A stretch of 64,000 nucleotides of DNA from the human T2T-CHM13v2.0 reference genome, Homo sapiens (GCF_009914755.1 NC_060947.1); one strand, 5' to 3'; numbered from the stretch's first letter, positions 39,826 through 59,358 are shown. Notes: generated by a model from the sequence alone, not told the origin. Translations and numbers: made by a program.

Positions 39826-40228
39826 AAAAGTTGCCTAATGTAACAGGTGGGCCTATATTTAAGAATACAGGTTCTATTCAGGCAGACTCCCTCCTCAAGT
39901 GGGTCCCTGACCCCCGAGTAGCCTAACTGGGAGGCACCCCCTAGTAGGGGCAGACTGACACCTCACAAGGCCGGGTACTCCTCTGAGACAAAACTTCCAG
40001 AGGAATGATCAGGCAGCAGCATTTGTGGTTCACCAATATCCAGTGTTCTGCAGCCACCGCTGCTCATAGATACCCAGGCAAACAGGGTCTGGAGTGGACC
40101 TCCATTAAACTCCAACAGACCTGTAGCTGAGGGTCCTGACTGTTAGAAGGAAAACTAACAAACAGAAAGGACATCCACACCAAAAACCCATCTGTACATC
40201 ACTGTCATCAAAGACCAAAACCACAAAG

Positions 40229-41247
40229 ATGGGGAAAAAACAGAGCAGAAAAACCGGACACTCTAAAAATCAGAGCACCTCTCCTCCTGCAAAGGAATGC
40301 AGCTCCTCACAAGCAACGGAACAAAGCTGGATGGAGAATGACTTTGACGAGTTGAGAGAGGAAGGCTTCAGAAGATCAAACTACTCTGACCTAAGGGAGG
40401 AAGTGCGAACCAATGGCAAAGAAGTTAAAAACTTTTTGAAAAAAAATTAGATGAATGGATAACTAGAATAACCAATGCAGAGAAGTCCTTAAATGATCTG
40501 ATGGAGCTGAAAACCACGGCACGAGAACTACGTGATGAATGCACAAGCCTCAGTAACTGATGCGGTCAACTGGAAGAAAGGGTATCACCAATGGAAGACG
40601 AAATGAATGAAATGAAGCATGAAGAGAAGTTTAGAGAAAAAAGAATAAAAAGAAATGAACAAAGCCTCCAAGAAATATGGGACTAAGTGAAAAGACCAAA
40701 TCCACATCTAATTGGTGTACCTGAAAGTGACGGGGGGAATGGAACCAAGTAGGAAAACACTCTGCAGGATATTTTCCAGGAGAACTTCCCCAACCTAGCA
40801 AGGCAGGCCAACATTCAAATTCAGGAAATACAGAGAACGCCACAAAGATACTCCTCAAGAAGAGCAACTCCAAGACACATAATTATCAGATTCACCAAAG
40901 TTGAAATGAAGGAAAAAATGTTAAGGACAGCCAAAGAGAAAGGTAAGGTTACCCACAAAGGGAAGCCCATCAGACTAACAGCTGATTTCTCAGCAGAAAC
41001 TCTACAAGCCAGAAGGGAGTTGGGGCCAATATTCAACATTCTTAAAGAAAAGAATTTTCAACTTAGAATTTCATATCCAGCCAAACTAAGCTTCATAAGT
41101 GAAGGAGAAATAAAAACCTTTACAGACAAGCAAATGCTGAGAGAATTTGTCACCACCAGGCCTGCCCTAAAAGAGCTCCTGAAGGAAGCACTAAACATGG
41201 AAAGGAACAACCAGTACCAGCCACTGGAAAAACATGCCAAATTGTAA
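40229..41247 (+). pseudogene. Disrupted L1 ORF1p
   Basis: MGKKQSRK... start and ...QPLEKHAKL end, broken by a frameshift and stops. Confidence 0.92.
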
Positions 41248-41310
41248 AGACCATCAAGGCTAGGAAGAAACTGCATCAACTAACAAGCAAAATAACCAGC
41301 TAACATCATA

Positions 41311-54993: not shown

Positions 54994-57900
54994 ATGACAG
55001 GATCAAATTCACACATAACAATACTAACCTTAAATGTAAATGGGCTAAATGCTCCAAGTAAAAGACACAGACTGGCAAATTGGATAAAGAGTCAAGACCC
55101 ATCAGTGTGCTGTATTCAGGAGACCCATCTCACGTGCAGAGACACACATAGGCTCAAAATAAAAGCATGGAGGAAGATCTGCCAAGCAAATGGAAAACAA
55201 AAAAAGGCAGGGGTTGCAATCCTACTCTCTGATAAAACAGACTTTAAACCAACAAACATCAAAAGAGACAAAGAAGGCCATTACATAATGGTAAAGGGAT
55301 CAATTCAACAAGAAGAGCTAACTATCCTAAATATATATGCACCCAGTACAGGAGCATCCAGATTCATAAAGCAAGCCCTTAGAGACCTACAAAGAGACTT
55401 AGACTCCCACATAATAATAATGGGAGACTTTAACACCCCACTGTCAACATTAGACAGATCCACGAGACAGAAAGTTAACAAGGATATCCAGGAATTGAAC
55501 TCAGCTCTGCACCAAGTAGACCTAATAGACATCTACAGAACTCTCCACCCCAAATCAACAGAATATACATTCTTCTCAGCACCACATCACACTTATTCCA
55601 AAATTGTCCACAGAGTTGGAAGTAAAGCTCTCCTCAGCAAATGTAAAAGAACAGAAATTATAACAAAGTGTCTCTCAGACCACAGTGCAATCAAACTAGA
55701 ACTCAGGATTAAGAAACTCACTCAAAACCACTCAACTACATGGGAACTGAACAACCTGCTCCTGAATGACTACTGGGTACATAACGAAATGAAGGCAGAA
55801 ATAAAGATGTTCTTTGAAACCAACGAGAACAAAGACACAACATACCAGAATCTCTGGGACACATTCAAAGCAGTGTGTAGAGGGAAATTTATAGCACTAA
55901 GTGCCCACAAGAGAAAGCAGGAAAGATCTGAAATAGATACCCTGACATCACAATTAAAAGAACTAGAGAAGCAAGAGCAAACACATTCAAAAGCTAGCAG
56001 AAGGCAAGAAATAACTAAGATCAGAGCAGAACTAAAGGAAATAGAGACACAAAAAACCCTTCAAAAAATTAATGAATCCAGGAGCTGGTTTTTATAAAAG
56101 GTCAACAAAATTGATAGACCACTAGCAAGATTAATAAAGAAGAAAAGAGAGAAGAGTCAAATAGATGCAATAAAAAGTGATAAAGGGGATATTACCACCG
56201 ATCCCACAGAAATACAAACTACCATCAGAGAATACTACAAACACCTCTACACAAATAAACTAGAAAATCTAGAAGAAATGGATAAATTCCTCAACACATA
56301 CACCCTCCCAAGACTAAACCAGGAAGAAGTTGAATCCCTGAATAGACCAATAACAGGCTCTGAAATTGAGGCAATAATTAATAGCCTACCAACCAAAAAA
56401 AGTCCAGGACCAGACGGATTCACAGCCGAATTCTAACAGAGGTACAAGGAGGAGCTGGTACCATTTCTTCTGAAACTATTCCAATCAATAAAAAAAGAGG
56501 GAATCCTCCCTAACTCATTTTATGAGGCCAGCATCATCCTGATACCAAAGCCTGGCAGAGACACAACAAAAAAGAGAATTTTAGACCAATATCCTTGATG
56601 AACATCGATGCAAAAATCCTCTATAAAACACTGGCAAAGAGAATCCAGCAGCACATCAAAAAGCTTATCCACCATGATCAAGTGGGCTTCATCTCTGGGA
56701 TGCAAGGCTGGTTCAACATATGAAAATCAATAAACGTAATCCAGCATATAAACAGAACCAAAGACAAAAACCAGATGATTATCTCAATAGATGCAGAAAA
56801 GGCCTTTGACAAAATTCAACAGCCCTTCATCCTAAAAACTCTCAATAAATTAGGTATTGATGGGACTCATCTCAAAATCATAAGAGCTATTTATGAGAAA
56901 CCCACAGCCAATATCATACTGAATGGGCAAAAACTGGAAGCATTCCCTTTGAAAATTGGCACAAGACAGGGATGCCCTCTCTCACCATTCCTATTCAACT
57001 TAGTGTTGGAAGTTCTGGCCAGGGCAATGAGACAGGAGAAAGAAATGAAGGGTATTCAATTAGCAAAAGAGGAAGTCAAATTGTCCCTGTTTGCAGATGA
57101 CATGATTGTGTATTTAGAAAACCCCATCGTCTCAGCCCCAAATCTCCTTAAGCTGATAAGTAACTTCAGCAAAGTCTCAGGATACAAAATCAATGTGCAA
57201 AAATCACAAGCATTCTTATACACCAATAACAGACAAACAGAGAGCCAAATCATGAGTGAACTCCCATTCACAATTGCTTCAAAGAGAATAAAATACCTAG
57301 GAATCCAACTTACAAGGGATGTGAAGGACCTCTTCAAGGAGAACTATAAACACTGCTCAACAAAATAAAAGAGGACACAAACAAATGGAAGAACATTCCA
57401 TGCTCATGGGTAGGAAGAATCAATATCATGAAAATGGCCATACTGCCCAAGGTAATTTATAGATTCAATGCCATCCCCATCAAGCTACCAAGGACTTTCT
57501 TCACAGAATTGGAAAAAACTACTTTAAAGTTCATATGGAACCAAAAAAGGGCCCACATTGCCAAGACAATCCTAAGCCAAAAGAACAAAGCTGGAGGCAT
57601 CACACTACCTGACTTCAAACTATACTACAAGTCTACAGTAACCAAAACAGCATGGTACTGGTAACATAACAGAGATATAGACCAATGGAACAGAACAGAA
57701 CCCTCAGAAGTAATACCACACATCTACAACCATCTGATCTTTGACAAACCTGACAAAAACAAGAAATGGCTAAAGGATTCCCTATTTAATAAATGGTGCT
57801 GGGAAAACTGGCTAGCCATATGTAGAAAGCTGAATCTGGATCCCTTCCTTACACCTTACACAAAAGTTAATTCAAGATGGATTAAAGACTTAAATGTTAG

Positions 57901-58820
57901 ACCTAAAACCATAAAAGCTCTAGAAGAAAACCTAGGCAATACCATTCAGGACATAGGCATGAGCAAGGACTTCATGTCTAAAGCACCAAAAGCAATGGCA
58001 ACAAAACCCAAAATTGACCAATGGGATCTAATTAAACTAAAGAGCTTCTGCACAGCAAAAGAAACTACCATCACAGTGAACAGGCAACCTACAGAATGGG
58101 AGAAAATTTTTGCAATCTACTCATCTGACAAAGGGCTAATATCCAGAATCTACAAGGAACTCCAACAAACTTACAAGAAAAAAACAAACAACCCCATCAA
58201 AAAGTGGGCAAAGGAGATGAACAGACACTTCTCAAAAGAAGACATTTATACAGCCAACAGACACATGAAAAAATGCTCATCATCACTGACCATCAGAGAA
58301 ATGCAAATCAAAACGACAATGAGATACCATCTCACACCAGTTAGAATGGCAATCATTAAAAACTCAGGAAACAACAGGTTCTGGAGAGGATGTGGAGAAA
58401 TAGGAACACTTTTACACTGTTGGTGGGACTGTAAACTAGTTCAACCATTGTGGAAGTCAGTGTGGCAATTCCTCAGGGATCTAGAACTAGAAATACCATT
58501 TGACCCAGCCATCCCATTACTGGGTATATACCCAAAGGATTATAAATCATGCTGCTATAAAGACACATGCACATGTATGTTTATTGCAGCACTATTCACA
58601 ATAGCAAAGACTTGGAACCAACCCAAATGTCCATCAATGATAGACTGGATTAAGAAAATGTGGCACATATATACCATGGAATACTATGCAGCCATAAAAA
58701 AAGGATGTGTTCATGTCCTTTGTAGGGACATGGATGAAGCTGGAAACCATCATTCTCAGCAAACTATTGCCAGGACAAAAAACCAAACACTGCATGTTCT
58801 CACTCATAGGTGGGAATTGA
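54994..58820 (+). pseudogene. Disrupted L1 ORF2p
   Basis: Open 367-aa N-terminus covering the endonuclease domain, then TAA. Later fragments carry QGCPLSP and LFADDM. Confidence 0.95.
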
Positions 58821-59358
58821 ACAATGAGAACACATGGACACAGGAAGGGGAACATCACACACTAGGGCCTGTCGTGGGGTGGGGGGAGGGGGGAGGGATA
58901 GCACTGGGAGATACACCTAATGTAAATGACGAGTTAATGGGTGCAGCACACCAATATGGCACATGTATACATGTGTAACAAACCTGCACGTTGTGCACAT
59001 GTACCCTAGAACTTAAAGCATTAAAAAAAAGAAAATATCAAATTGTCTTCCAGAAAGATTGTACCAATATACACTTTTATAAATAGCATATGAGATTATT
59101 AGCTCTCCATATTAACATTTGCATCAATATTTGACAGTCTAATAGTATAAAATACCTAATTTTTTAAAATTATGTTTTTGTGATGAACAAGATGAAGAAA
59201 TTTCTGTATTTGTAGGAGCTGCTTGTACTTCTTCTACGAATTATCTGTTCATATCGTCTGTGCATATCTGATTTGGCTGTTATTCTTTTACTTGTTGATA
59301 TATAGCAGCTCTACATGCATACCAACATTAACTCTCTAGATGTCATACATTGCCTATA

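What the first reader, a model, noticed from the sequence alone, without database searches (positions are those of the whole stretch)
39879..59030. Two independently inserted L1s of different subfamily type share many private mutations, including identical stop codons: patchy ectopic gene conversion about 13.7 kb apart
Seen: the elements have different flanks, different 5' ends and different 3' diagnostics (gctaaatgac/ccctaaaac versus gtaaatgac/ccctagaac). They nevertheless share the same unusual alleles at an offset of about 13,683: caacTTagaa (41063/54746), ataaaAacctt, acatggGaact (42060/55744), TAA stop plus aagGtc (42411/56095), gatatTacc, ttcTAAcag stop (42750/56434), cctcTataaaa (42939/56622), aaccaGatg (43091/56774), gaaaaTtggc, cagcccCaaatc, cagaAccctc, attgacCaatg, catcaCagtg and aaaacGacaatg (44632/58315). 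Most are non-CpG changes. They are interleaved with sites that still differ (ctatctatg/ctatttatg, gccaagtca/gccaagaca, ccaaaaaac/ccaacagac). A few subfamily-type sites look swapped (atccctgatg in the PA3/4-like copy, atccttgatg in the PA5-like copy). Knowledge: an active source L1 cannot carry ORF2 stops, so shared stops most simply arose after insertion and were copied. Inference: repeated, short-tract, probably bidirectional non-allelic gene conversion between neighbouring direct repeats. The consensus alleles are from my memory of L1PA consensus sequences.
Basis: partly seen in the sequence, partly recalled or inferred. Interest (0 to 1): 0.8.

Follow-up and report, generated by a model that had tools for sequence, protein, structure and literature searches.

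The report
Gene conversion between neighbouring L1 repeats
Two dead L1 retrotransposons that landed separately 13.7 kb apart on the human X chromosome later copied about 2.3 kb of sequence into each other, stop codons included; this kind of exchange is already known, and here it is unusually easy to read.

Summary
Copy A (39879-45355) is 5'-truncated and has its own exact 18-nt target-site duplication. Copy B (52888-59046) is near full length. Both are plus-strand L1PA insertions with unrelated flanks.

Outside about 40794-43091, A sits in the youngest tier of a 23-copy comparison panel and B near its base. Forcing A+B together there is rejected (p-AU 1e-5). Inside that stretch A and B are sisters (SH-aLRT 99.6).

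A and B share 30 rare alleles, against about 2 for random pairs. Of these, 13 are transversions and only 2 are CpG decays. Three in-frame ORF2 stops are shared.

- 8-11 of the 30 "private" alleles are older-subfamily alleles that B carries by descent and passed to A.
- One shared stop recurs genome-wide (49 exact 20-mers), and another is a CpG hot spot.
- The main signal fits one patchy tract of about 2.3 kb plus small patches, not necessarily many short tracts.
- Transfer ran in both directions.
- A third L1, 92 kb upstream, probably exchanged short patches too.

Best explanation: non-allelic gene conversion (confidence 0.85). This is a new instance of a known process, of modest interest. Ape orthologues and long reads were not available to test it.

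The parts
39861..39878 (+). 5' target-site duplication of L1 copy A (18 nt)
   Evidence: The same exact 18-mer occurs at 39861 and 45356 and nowhere else in the window (first seen).
39879..45355 (+). L1 copy A: 5'-truncated L1PA, about 5.48 kb, ending in an A-rich (TAA)n tail. It belongs to the youngest tier (T3) of the comparison panel outside the converted stretch.
   Evidence: BLAST to B; ends and tail. In the flank tree A lies inside the T3 clade, support 99.6. Outside the tract, 21 of 22 late-trunk sites are young in A.
45356..45373 (+). 3' target-site duplication of copy A
52888..59046 (+). L1 copy B: near full-length L1PA, about 6.16 kb, of an older subfamily than all 20 panel copies. 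No exact target-site duplication of 8 nt or more was found.
   Evidence: Full-length panel copies and copy C align from B 52888-52893 onward. B sits at the base of the panel next to L029 in the flank tree. Outside the tract all 22 late-trunk sites are old in B, and 11 early-trunk sites are old. TSD search negative.
40794..43091 (+). Main A-B conversion tract as seen in A (about 2.3 kb: end of ORF1, the spacer and the 5' half of ORF2). The left edge lies between 40645 and 40794 and the right edge between 43091 and 43139.
   Evidence: The GENECONV-like top fragment of 253 pairs is A-B 40775-43135, with 0 of 2,000 permutations reaching it. A+B are sisters at 99.6. A carries B's old-subfamily allele at 7 of 8 sites inside versus 1 of 33 outside. 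A's strictly private density is 0.75% here versus 1.86% further 3'.
54483..56774 (+). The same tract in B. Here B carries young-tier alleles at positions homologous to A 41170, 42182, 42912 and 43040.
   Evidence: Coordinates. B is young at 4 of 6 late-trunk sites inside versus 0 of 22 outside.
42411..42413 (+). In-frame ORF2 stop shared by A, B (56095-56097) and the third copy C
   Evidence: Codon-column reading. The allele is in 0 of 20 panel copies. The 22-mer carrying it plus the neighbouring shared allele at 42417 has 3 exact hits in the genome: A, B and one chr2 copy.
42750..42752 (+). In-frame ORF2 stop shared by A and B (56434-56436). It recurs genome-wide.
   Evidence: 49 exact 20-mer hits genome-wide including A and B. 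Also in panel copy L024.
43038..43040 (+). In-frame ORF2 stop shared by A, B and C. This is a CpG-decay hot spot and therefore weak evidence on its own.
   Evidence: Also present in 8 of 20 panel copies. Alignment shown.
44337..44632 (+). Small 3' A-B patch: four shared rare alleles (44337, 44392, 44474, 44632; in B 58019-58315), three of them exclusive to A and B
57361..57566 (+). B-C patch (A coordinates 43679-43888): five consecutive rare alleles shared by B and the third L1, copy C, but not by A. Copy C lies outside the window at G000:C23:94925979-94931868 (window places -58021 to -52132, plus strand), about 92 kb upstream of A. It has its own TSD with one mismatch and a deletion of about 212 nt in the 5'UTR, and it is a probable third conversion partner.
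   Evidence: 43810 is exclusive to B and C. 43679, 43694 and 43888 are old-subfamily alleles that C otherwise lacks: C is old at only 3 of the early-trunk sites. C is the third-best of 40 scored genomic matches to A 42300-43100. Fetched; TSD; coordinates; deletion from the BLAST. Rare-allele sharing: B-C 12 and A-C 9 versus a null mean of 2.2. Exclusive doubletons: A-C 5, B-C 4, versus a 95th percentile of 3 and a 99th of 5.

Best explanation
A and B are two separate L1PA retrotransposition events in the same orientation. Their homologous positions lie 13,683 bp apart, with 7.5 kb of unique DNA between them. B is the older insertion and belongs to an older subfamily. A is younger and was 5'-truncated on arrival.

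After both had inserted and begun to decay, homologous-recombination repair used one copy as template for the other (non-allelic, or interlocus, gene conversion). The main event copied about 2.3-2.5 kb (about 40794-43091 in A) from B into A. It carried B's older-subfamily alleles and B's accumulated private mutations, including ORF2 stops, and it erased A's own earlier mutations there.

At least one transfer went the other way, because B carries young-tier alleles at four sites inside the same stretch. Small extra patches lie further 3' (44337-44632).

A third same-orientation L1 (copy C) 92 kb upstream probably exchanged short patches with both A and B.

Shown: independent insertion of A and C; different subfamily affinity of A and B on both sides of the tract; sister relationship inside it; the excess and clustering of shared rare alleles.

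Inferred: the mechanism (homologous-recombination repair), the number of events, their direction, and their timing. The timing is roughly the last 40-50% of A's residence time, from A's private-mutation density of 0.75% inside the tract versus 1.86% outside.
For: Independent insertions: A has an exact 18-nt TSD and C its own TSD. The flanks of A and B are unrelated apart from one 304-nt repeat.

Different subfamilies outside the tract: in the flank tree A falls inside the youngest clade (99.6) and B next to the oldest panel copy. Forcing an A+B clade costs 115.9 lnL, p-AU 1e-5. The 5' and 3' segment trees agree with each other.

Same sequence inside the tract: A+B are sisters at 99.6, and forcing A with its own clade costs 48.6 lnL, p-AU 0.015.

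Site painting on 119 trunk substitutions: where B has the old state, A is old at 7 of 8 sites inside the tract and 1 of 33 outside (Fisher p 2.8e-6). B is young at 4 of 6 late-trunk sites inside and 0 of 22 outside (p 7e-4).

Shared rare alleles: 25 versus a null mean of 2.2. 30 over the full length, of which 13 are transversions, 2 are CpG decays and 12 are absent from all other compared copies. 11 exclusive doubletons versus a 99th percentile of 5.

Clustering: runs test P=0.0035. The top GENECONV-like fragment of 253 pairs is A-B.

Recipient signature: A's strictly private density drops to 0.40 of its flank value inside the tract (p=0.002). B (0.97), C (1.05) and 19 of 20 panel copies (0.66-1.42) do not show such a drop.

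Locality: among 40 scored genomic matches to A 42300-43100, the best two after A itself are B and C, both within 120 kb. The 22-mer with two shared alleles has only 3 hits in 3.1 Gb.
Against: - No orthologous pre-conversion state and no read-level check could be obtained, so the order of events is inferred.
- The tract is not clean. 41700 stays different (A young, B old). 41456-41693 is an island where A shares alleles with C and B shares alleles with C. 42912 is swapped. These need extra events or patchy mismatch repair.
- B's load inside the tract (26 singletons, plus the alleles shared with A) exceeds its flank density. A pure B-to-A model therefore does not fit perfectly.
- Tract limits and tiers were chosen after seeing the data, so the Fisher and AU p-values are optimistic.
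- Only 40 of 6,761 candidates and 40 of 34,603 were scored. B itself was missed. Another genomic copy with the same haplotype therefore cannot be excluded by these searches.
- One chr2 copy (D) shares the 42411/42417 22-mer and 5 of the 26 A-B alleles plus the stop allele at 42411 that C also carries.
- Part of the shared set is weak evidence: 8-11 are older-subfamily alleles, one stop has 49 genome-wide hits, and one is a CpG hot spot.
- Copy C's involvement is less secure. The GENECONV-like p-values are 0.07 (B-C) and 0.16 (A-C). The unrelated pair L019-L026 also has 5 exclusive doubletons.
Confidence: 0.85

Rival explanations
1. Mosaic at birth. A was reverse-transcribed from a chimeric template, either by template switching between a young L1 RNA and a transcript of B, or from a recombinant source element. 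Its middle would then have been B-like from the moment of insertion.
For: It would give a young-old-young mosaic like the one painted. Recombinant L1s are recognised: a 2026 preprint classed 22 high-confidence and 13 probable recombinants among 2,267 young L1 sequences (PMC13192797, passages read).
Against: It needs two switches and a transcript of the one dead element that happens to lie 13.7 kb away. It does not explain the young alleles inside B at 41170, 42182, 42912 and 43040. It does not explain the patches shared with C 92 kb away. It does not explain why A's own private mutations are depleted in the tract relative to its flanks. A chimera at birth would age uniformly.
Confidence: 0.05
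2. Common defective source or unrecognised sub-lineage. A and B (and C) descend from a small lineage whose source already carried these alleles and stops and was mobilised in trans.
For: Some shared alleles do occur elsewhere. The 24-mer with the 41063/41064 pair has 5 genomic hits. The stop at 42750 has 49 hits. The chr2 copy D shares the 42411/42417 22-mer.
Against: A and B fall in different tiers on both sides of the tract, and an A+B clade is rejected there (p-AU 1e-5). Sharing is confined to part of the element (7 of 8 versus 1 of 33). The extra carriers (D, F, H5) are older-subfamily copies that share B's ancestral alleles, not the private set: they carry 5-7 of 26 A-B alleles, and those are the ancestral ones. 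Retrotransposition does not place relatives within 120 kb of each other.
Confidence: 0.04
3. Assembly or polishing artefact. Reads from one copy were used to correct the other in T2T-CHM13.
For: None from my calls. It cannot be excluded without reads.
Against: The copies differ at 339 aligned positions plus 51 gap columns, and 7.5 kb of unique sequence lies between them. Cross-polishing would not leave that pattern. The shared alleles sit among private differences in both copies. Copy C, 92 kb away, shows the same kind of sharing.
Confidence: 0.02
4. Parallel mutation at hot spots in two unrelated copies.
For: The stop at 43038 is such a case, present in 8 of 20 panel copies. The stop at 42750 recurs.
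Against: 13 of 30 shared alleles are transversions and only 2 are CpG decays. Random pairs share 2.2 on average, not 25.
Confidence: 0.01
5. DNA-level (segmental) duplication of one L1.
For: The copies are in the same orientation and close together.
Against: The flanks share no homology. A has its own TSD and tail. The 5' truncation points differ. Subfamily affinity differs at both ends.
Confidence: 0.01

Closest known systems
Non-allelic gene conversion between neighbouring Alu elements. Aleshin & Zhi 2010, as described in Fawcett & Innan 2019 (PMC6598467, passages read) and in 'Gene Conversion amongst Alu SINE Elements' (PMC8230782, passages read).
   Same: Independently inserted copies of one repeat family exchange sequence. 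Subfamily-diagnostic sites switch. The rate is described as highest for close neighbours and at hot spots 'especially on the sex chromosomes'. Cases where an old inactive element overwrites a younger one are reported (12 cases in PMC8230782).
   Different: Here the repeats are 5.5-6.2 kb L1s rather than 300-nt Alus, and the tract is about 2.3 kb. The 13.7 kb spacing is beyond the roughly 10 kb range quoted for Alus. A putative partner lies 92 kb away. PMC8230782 states that most TE conversion studies concerned Alu.
Recombinant young L1s flagged in pangenome assemblies (PMC13192797, bioRxiv 2026, passages read)
   Same: Full-length L1 sequences that are mosaics of two donor groups, detected with 3SEQ/BOOTSCAN. 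35 of 2,267 were removed as recombinant.
   Different: Those are young L1HS/L1PA2-type loci screened against lineage groups. In the passages I read the donor locus is not identified. Here both partners are old, dead copies and the donor is the physical neighbour.
Burton et al. [quoted passage not shown] I saw this only as a reference-list entry in PMC5640379 and did not read the paper.
   Same: By its title, it asks whether an L1 locus was converted by another L1.
   Different: Content not seen, so no comparison is possible.
Interlocus gene conversion in segmental duplications.
   Same: The same repair mechanism acting on paralogous sequence, with kilobase-scale tracts.
   Different: The paralogues here are dispersed retrotransposon insertions about 93% identical, not high-identity duplications.

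Membership tests
Non-allelic (interlocus) gene conversion between dispersed repeats | The partners are independent insertions, not a duplication | tested here: met
   A has an exact 18-nt TSD and C a TSD with one mismatch. The A and B flanks are unrelated. B's own TSD was not found.
Non-allelic (interlocus) gene conversion between dispersed repeats | Phylogenetic incongruence along the element: partners are sisters inside the tract and unrelated outside it | tested here: met
   Inside, A+B at 99.6. Outside, an A+B clade is rejected, p-AU 1e-5. Segment trees.
Non-allelic (interlocus) gene conversion between dispersed repeats | Shared derived alleles exceed what unrelated copies share and are rare elsewhere in the genome | tested here: met
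   25 versus mean 2.2. 11 exclusive doubletons versus a 99th percentile of 5. The 22-mer has 3 genomic hits. Caveat: only 23-28 comparison copies were used, and genome searches scored 40 candidates.
Non-allelic (interlocus) gene conversion between dispersed repeats | Shared sites are clustered into tracts with boundaries | tested here: met
   Runs test P=0.0035. Top GENECONV-like fragment 40775-43135, 0 of 2,000 permutations. Painting 7 of 8 versus 1 of 33. The tract has internal exceptions at 41456-41700 and 42912.
Non-allelic (interlocus) gene conversion between dispersed repeats | The recipient loses its own earlier mutations inside the tract | tested here: met
   A: 0.75% versus 1.86% private sites, ratio 0.40, p=0.002. 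19 of 20 panel copies fall in 0.66-1.42. One panel copy (L024) has 0.35, unexplained.
Non-allelic (interlocus) gene conversion between dispersed repeats | The orthologous locus in an outgroup species shows the pre-conversion state | not testable with these tools
Non-allelic (interlocus) gene conversion between dispersed repeats | The alleles are real on flank-anchored long reads or in independent assemblies | not testable with these tools
   Only the T2T-CHM13 assembly was searchable.
Named L1PA subfamilies (reader: A PA3/4-like, B PA5-like) | Match to the Dfam/Repbase diagnostic positions of the named subfamily | not testable with these tools
Only the relative order was tested: A is in the youngest tier, and B is older than all 20 panel copies but younger than D/F/H5.
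Trans-mobilised defective L1 sub-lineage | Shared alleles spread uniformly along the element, with the same subfamily at both ends | tested here: not met
   Sharing is confined to part of the element, and the subfamily differs at both ends.
Segmental duplication | Homology continues into the flanks | tested here: not met

The most novel reading that the evidence does not exclude
Three same-orientation L1PA copies spread over about 117 kb of Xq21.33 form a small conversion network. The oldest, long-dead copy (B) is the main donor, and it overwrites younger neighbours at distances up to about 92-105 kb, well beyond the roughly 10 kb range described for Alus. The patchy, partly reciprocal mosaic inside the A-B tract would be the fossil of one long heteroduplex with patchy mismatch repair rather than many events. 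If this is general on the L1-rich X chromosome, it would systematically distort L1 subfamily calls and divergence-based ages, and it would spread inactivating mutations between neighbouring elements.
Probability: 0.3. Interest if true: 0.45.

Novelty: new member of a known kind. Interest (0 to 1): 0.3.

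Why it matters
This is a clean, datable example of L1-L1 interlocus gene conversion with the donor identified. It shows an old dead element writing its stop codons and older-subfamily alleles into a younger copy.

Events like this blur subfamily assignment and divergence-based dating of L1 copies. Inside the tract A looks like a different, older element, and its private-mutation clock is reset to about 40% of the flank value.

The case gives a concrete locus for timing conversion with ape T2T assemblies. It can also be used to ask how far apart, and at how low an identity (about 93%), dispersed repeats still recombine.

It does not reveal a new mechanism.

Tried and rejected
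B was not even among the 40 candidates scored for A, so these lists were not used as evidence of uniqueness.
- The chr2 copy D, found through the 42411/42417 22-mer, first looked like a lineage relative. It shares 5 of the 26 A-B alleles plus the stop allele at 42411 that C also carries. After adding F and H5 it turned out to be an older-subfamily copy sharing B's ancestral alleles. I treat its two selected alleles as coincidence. By my own rough estimate, several such coincidences are expected among thousands of copies about 9% diverged; this was not computed by a tool.
- The chrX copy F, about 0.8 Mb downstream (found), looked like a fourth local partner. It is sister to the chr2 copy D (support 100) and shares only ancestral alleles. 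Rejected as a partner.
- The short L1 3' fragment at 26389-26816 shares 0 of 14 (A), 0 of 16 (B) and 0 of 28 (C) rare alleles in its span. Not a partner.
- A first 'Y versus N' two-group painting was too coarse and was confounded by CpG sites. It was replaced by the rooted ladder and trunk-site painting.
- GC-biased conversion: shared alleles are 13 strong-to-weak and 11 weak-to-strong. No bias is visible.
- The exact TSD search for B found nothing of 8 nt or more.
- Literature phrase searches for L1-specific conversion found one paper, and that only through a reference-list entry. I therefore make no claim that this locus is unpublished, beyond the fact that searches did not surface it.

Full report
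**What is there.** The window is human T2T chrX:94984001-95048000.

Copy A runs from 39879 to 45355 on the plus strand. It is a 5'-truncated L1 with an A-rich (TAA)n tail. It is bracketed by an exact 18-nt target-site duplication at 39861-39878 and 45356-45373, and that 18-mer occurs nowhere else in the window.

Copy B is also on the plus strand and is near full length. Several full-length genomic L1s and copy C align to it from 52888-52893 onward, so it starts about 100 nt upstream of the masked block the finding began with. It ends in a short A-run near 59040. I found no exact TSD of 8 nt or more for B.

BLAST aligns 39883-45352 with 53557-59037 at 93.2% identity. The only other similarity between the two neighbourhoods is a 304-nt repeat, 36382-36684 versus 60836-61138. 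These are therefore two loci with unrelated flanks, not a duplication.

A global alignment has 339 mismatches and 51 gap columns in 5,514 columns, and identity is uneven:
- 83-92% in 39883-40860
- 95-99% in 40861-43059
- about 93% in 43060-43459 and in 43660-44055
- about 95% up to 45052
- 82-92% at the 3' end

To polarise the differences I used the assembly itself. A search with A 42300-43100 scored 40 of 6,761 candidates. The best three were A itself, B (97%), and a copy 92 kb upstream of A on the same chromosome, which I call C (96%).

The 30 loci returned each span A 40800-44600. Against the other copies, A and B share 25 alleles whose frequency elsewhere is 15% or less. For 325 full-length pairs the mean is 2.2 and the 95th percentile 6. 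B-C (12) and A-C (9) are also in the top six. One higher pair, L010-L011 (32), involves a row with 352 'private' columns; I did not examine it and suspect misalignment.

I then extended 20 of the copies to full length. Over the whole of A the counts were A-B 26, A-C 13, B-C 11 and all three 3. Private alleles numbered 124 (A), 144 (B) and 127 (C).

Counting every site where A and B carry the same rare allele gives 30:
- 17 are transitions and 13 transversions.
- 2 are CpG decays and 2 are CpG-forming.
- 12 are absent from every other compared copy.

Alleles present in exactly two of 26 sequences number 11 for A-B, against a mean of 1.24 and a 99th percentile of 5. Only the true sister copies D and F have more, at 37.

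**Stops.** Reading codon columns in the ORF2 frame gives three shared in-frame stops:
- The stop at 42411 is shared by A, B, C and one chr2 copy (D).
- The stop at 42750 is shared by A, B and panel copy L024.
- The stop at 43038 is shared by A, B, C and 8 of 20 panel copies.

Genome-wide exact searches qualify these. The 22-mer holding the first stop plus the neighbouring shared allele at 42417 has 3 hits: A, B and the chr2 copy. The 20-mer holding the second stop has 49 hits, so that mutation recurs. The third is a CpG decay at a site where the young tier has a CpG. The shared-stop argument therefore rests mainly on the first stop.

Relative order could be tested.

Three more-diverged copies turned up through the pattern searches: D on chr2, H5 on chr5, and F on chrX about 0.8 Mb away. 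They root a ladder-shaped tree of the panel: old tier T0 (D, F, H5), then T1, then T2, then the youngest tier T3.

In trees of the 5' kilobase and of the 3' 220 nt, A groups with the same T3 copies and B with the oldest ones. On the concatenated flanks (39883-40990 plus 43140-45352):
- A lies inside the T3 clade (99.6).
- B lies at the base next to L029.
- A tree forcing A+B together is 115.9 lnL worse, p-AU 1e-5.

In 41000-43135 A and B are sisters (99.6). Forcing A with T3 costs 48.6 lnL, p-AU 0.015. The groups were named after the first trees had been seen, so these p-values are optimistic.

**Site painting.** I took 119 substitutions that change state along the trunk of the ladder.
- B is old at all 22 late-trunk sites outside the tract, and at 11 early-trunk sites there. 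It is therefore older than every panel copy.
- A is young at 21 of 22 late-trunk sites outside the tract.
- Where B is old, A is also old at 7 of 8 sites inside about 40700-43135, but at only 1 of 33 outside (Fisher p 2.8e-6).
- Conversely, B is young at 4 of 6 late-trunk sites inside (41170, 42182, 42912, 43040) and at 0 of 22 outside (p 7e-4).

So sequence moved from B to A, and also into B from a young copy. That donor is A or possibly C, since both carry three of those four alleles (41170, 42182 and 43040); at 42912 C has the young allele but A does not.

The older copies D, F and H5 carry 13-16 of B's 144 'private' alleles and 5-7 of the 26 A-B alleles, but only 2-5 of A's 124 private alleles. 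Hence 8-11 of the 30 shared alleles are ancestral alleles of B's older subfamily rather than post-insertion mutations.

**Tract structure.**
- Sites shared by A and B are clustered among the difference sites: 39 runs versus 48.9 expected, P=0.0035.
- A GENECONV-like scan of all 253 pairs puts A-B 40775-43135 first, with a score of 285 versus 206 for the next pair and 0 of 2,000 permutations reaching it.
- The left edge lies between 40645 (A young, B old) and 40794 (shared old allele).
- The right edge lies between 43091 (shared) and 43139 (A young, B old).
- Inside there are exceptions. 41700 stays discordant. In 41456-41693 A shares two exclusive alleles with C and B shares two others with C. 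Site 42912 is swapped.
- Further 3' there is a small A-B patch of four alleles at 44337-44632, plus isolated shared sites.

A's strictly private sites drop to 0.75% in the tract from 1.86% in the 3' flank (ratio 0.40, p=0.002). B (0.97), C (1.05) and 19 of 20 panel copies (0.66-1.42) show no such drop. Panel copy L024 is an unexplained outlier at 0.35. This is what a recipient whose earlier mutations were overwritten should look like. It places the main event at roughly the last 40-50% of A's residence time; that timing is my inference.

The data do not decide between one long heteroduplex with patchy repair and several events.

**The third copy.** C (G000:C23:94925979-94931868, window places -58021 to -52132, plus strand) has its own TSD with one mismatch and a deletion of about 212 nt in the 5'UTR.

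It shares a run of five rare alleles with B at A coordinates 43679-43888. One of these is exclusive to B and C. Three are old-subfamily alleles that C otherwise lacks.

It also shares doublets of exclusive alleles with A (40703/40736 and 41456/41521) and with B (41542/41693).

All three copies share 41833, 41945 and the stop at 42411. The patterns A-B, B-C and A-C cannot all fit one tree, which again indicates exchange.

The statistics for C are weaker. Exclusive doubletons are 5 for A-C and 4 for B-C, against a 95th percentile of 3 and a 99th of 5, and one unrelated pair also has 5. The GENECONV-like p-values are 0.07 and 0.16. I put C's involvement at about two in three.

**Rivals.**
- A duplication is excluded by the flanks and A's TSD.
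- A shared defective source is contradicted by the different tiers at both ends, by the confinement of sharing to part of the element, and by the fact that dispersal by retrotransposition would not place relatives within 120 kb of each other.
- A chimera at birth would not explain the young alleles inside B, the depletion of A's private sites inside the tract, or the patches shared with C.
- Parallel mutation is excluded by the numbers and by the 13 transversions.
- An assembly artefact cannot be tested without reads. It is unlikely given 339 aligned mismatches plus 51 gap columns between the copies and private differences interleaved with the shared sites.

**Comparison with what is known.** Non-allelic gene conversion between dispersed repeats is well described for Alus. 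Passages in PMC6598467 and PMC8230782 say it is strongest within about 10 kb, with hot spots 'especially on the sex chromosomes'. They also say old elements sometimes overwrite young ones, and that most TE studies concerned Alu.

A 2026 preprint removed 35 recombinant sequences from 2,267 young L1s (PMC13192797, passages read).

An older mouse paper on L1 gene conversion exists, but I saw it only as a reference-list entry.

My four literature searches did not surface this locus. That is not proof that it is unpublished.

**Verdict.** It is a well-resolved new instance of a known process. The added points are the identified donor, the old-to-young direction, transfer in both directions, and a probable partner 92 kb away. 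Interest 0.3.

Noticed in passing
outside the window: G000:C23:94925979-94931868 (window -58021 to -52132): A third full-length, plus-strand L1PA (copy C) is the third-best genomic match to A's ORF2 segment. It shares patches of rare alleles with both A and B, and it has a deletion of about 212 nt in its 5'UTR.
   Followed up: yes
genome-wide hits, e.g. G000:C2:14522116 and C2:14534818; C10:43316375 and C10:43325581; C3:69514652 and C3:69613809: Among the 49 copies carrying the same ORF2 stop 20-mer, several lie in same-strand pairs 9-100 kb apart. These could be further neighbour conversions or segmental duplications.
   Followed up: no
locus L024 (G000:C4:24921955-24925754 and its extensions): This panel copy shows the same tract-versus-flank asymmetry of private sites as A (0.89% versus 2.56%, ratio 0.35, p 4e-5). 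It also carries the 42750-type stop. The cause was not examined; it could be misalignment, a local insertion or its own conversion.
   Followed up: no
loci L010 and L011: This pair shares 32 'rare' alleles, but L011 shows 352 private columns. That suggests an inserted or misaligned stretch rather than a real relationship.
   Followed up: no
window 26389-26816 (+): A short 5'-truncated L1PA 3' end of about 430 nt, 93.7% identical to B. It shares none of the rare alleles of A, B or C.
   Followed up: yes
window 36382-36684 and 60836-61138: A pair of 304-nt repeats at 92.1% identity flank the A-B region on the outside, both on the plus strand. They are Alu-sized. Their family was not checked.
   Followed up: no
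G000:C23:95848842-95855289 (locus L073), about 0.8 Mb downstream of B: An older-subfamily L1 on the same chromosome carries the 41063/41064 allele pair, one of only 5 exact 24-mer hits genome-wide. It is sister to a chr2 copy and shares only ancestral alleles. I judged it not to be a local partner.
   Followed up: yes
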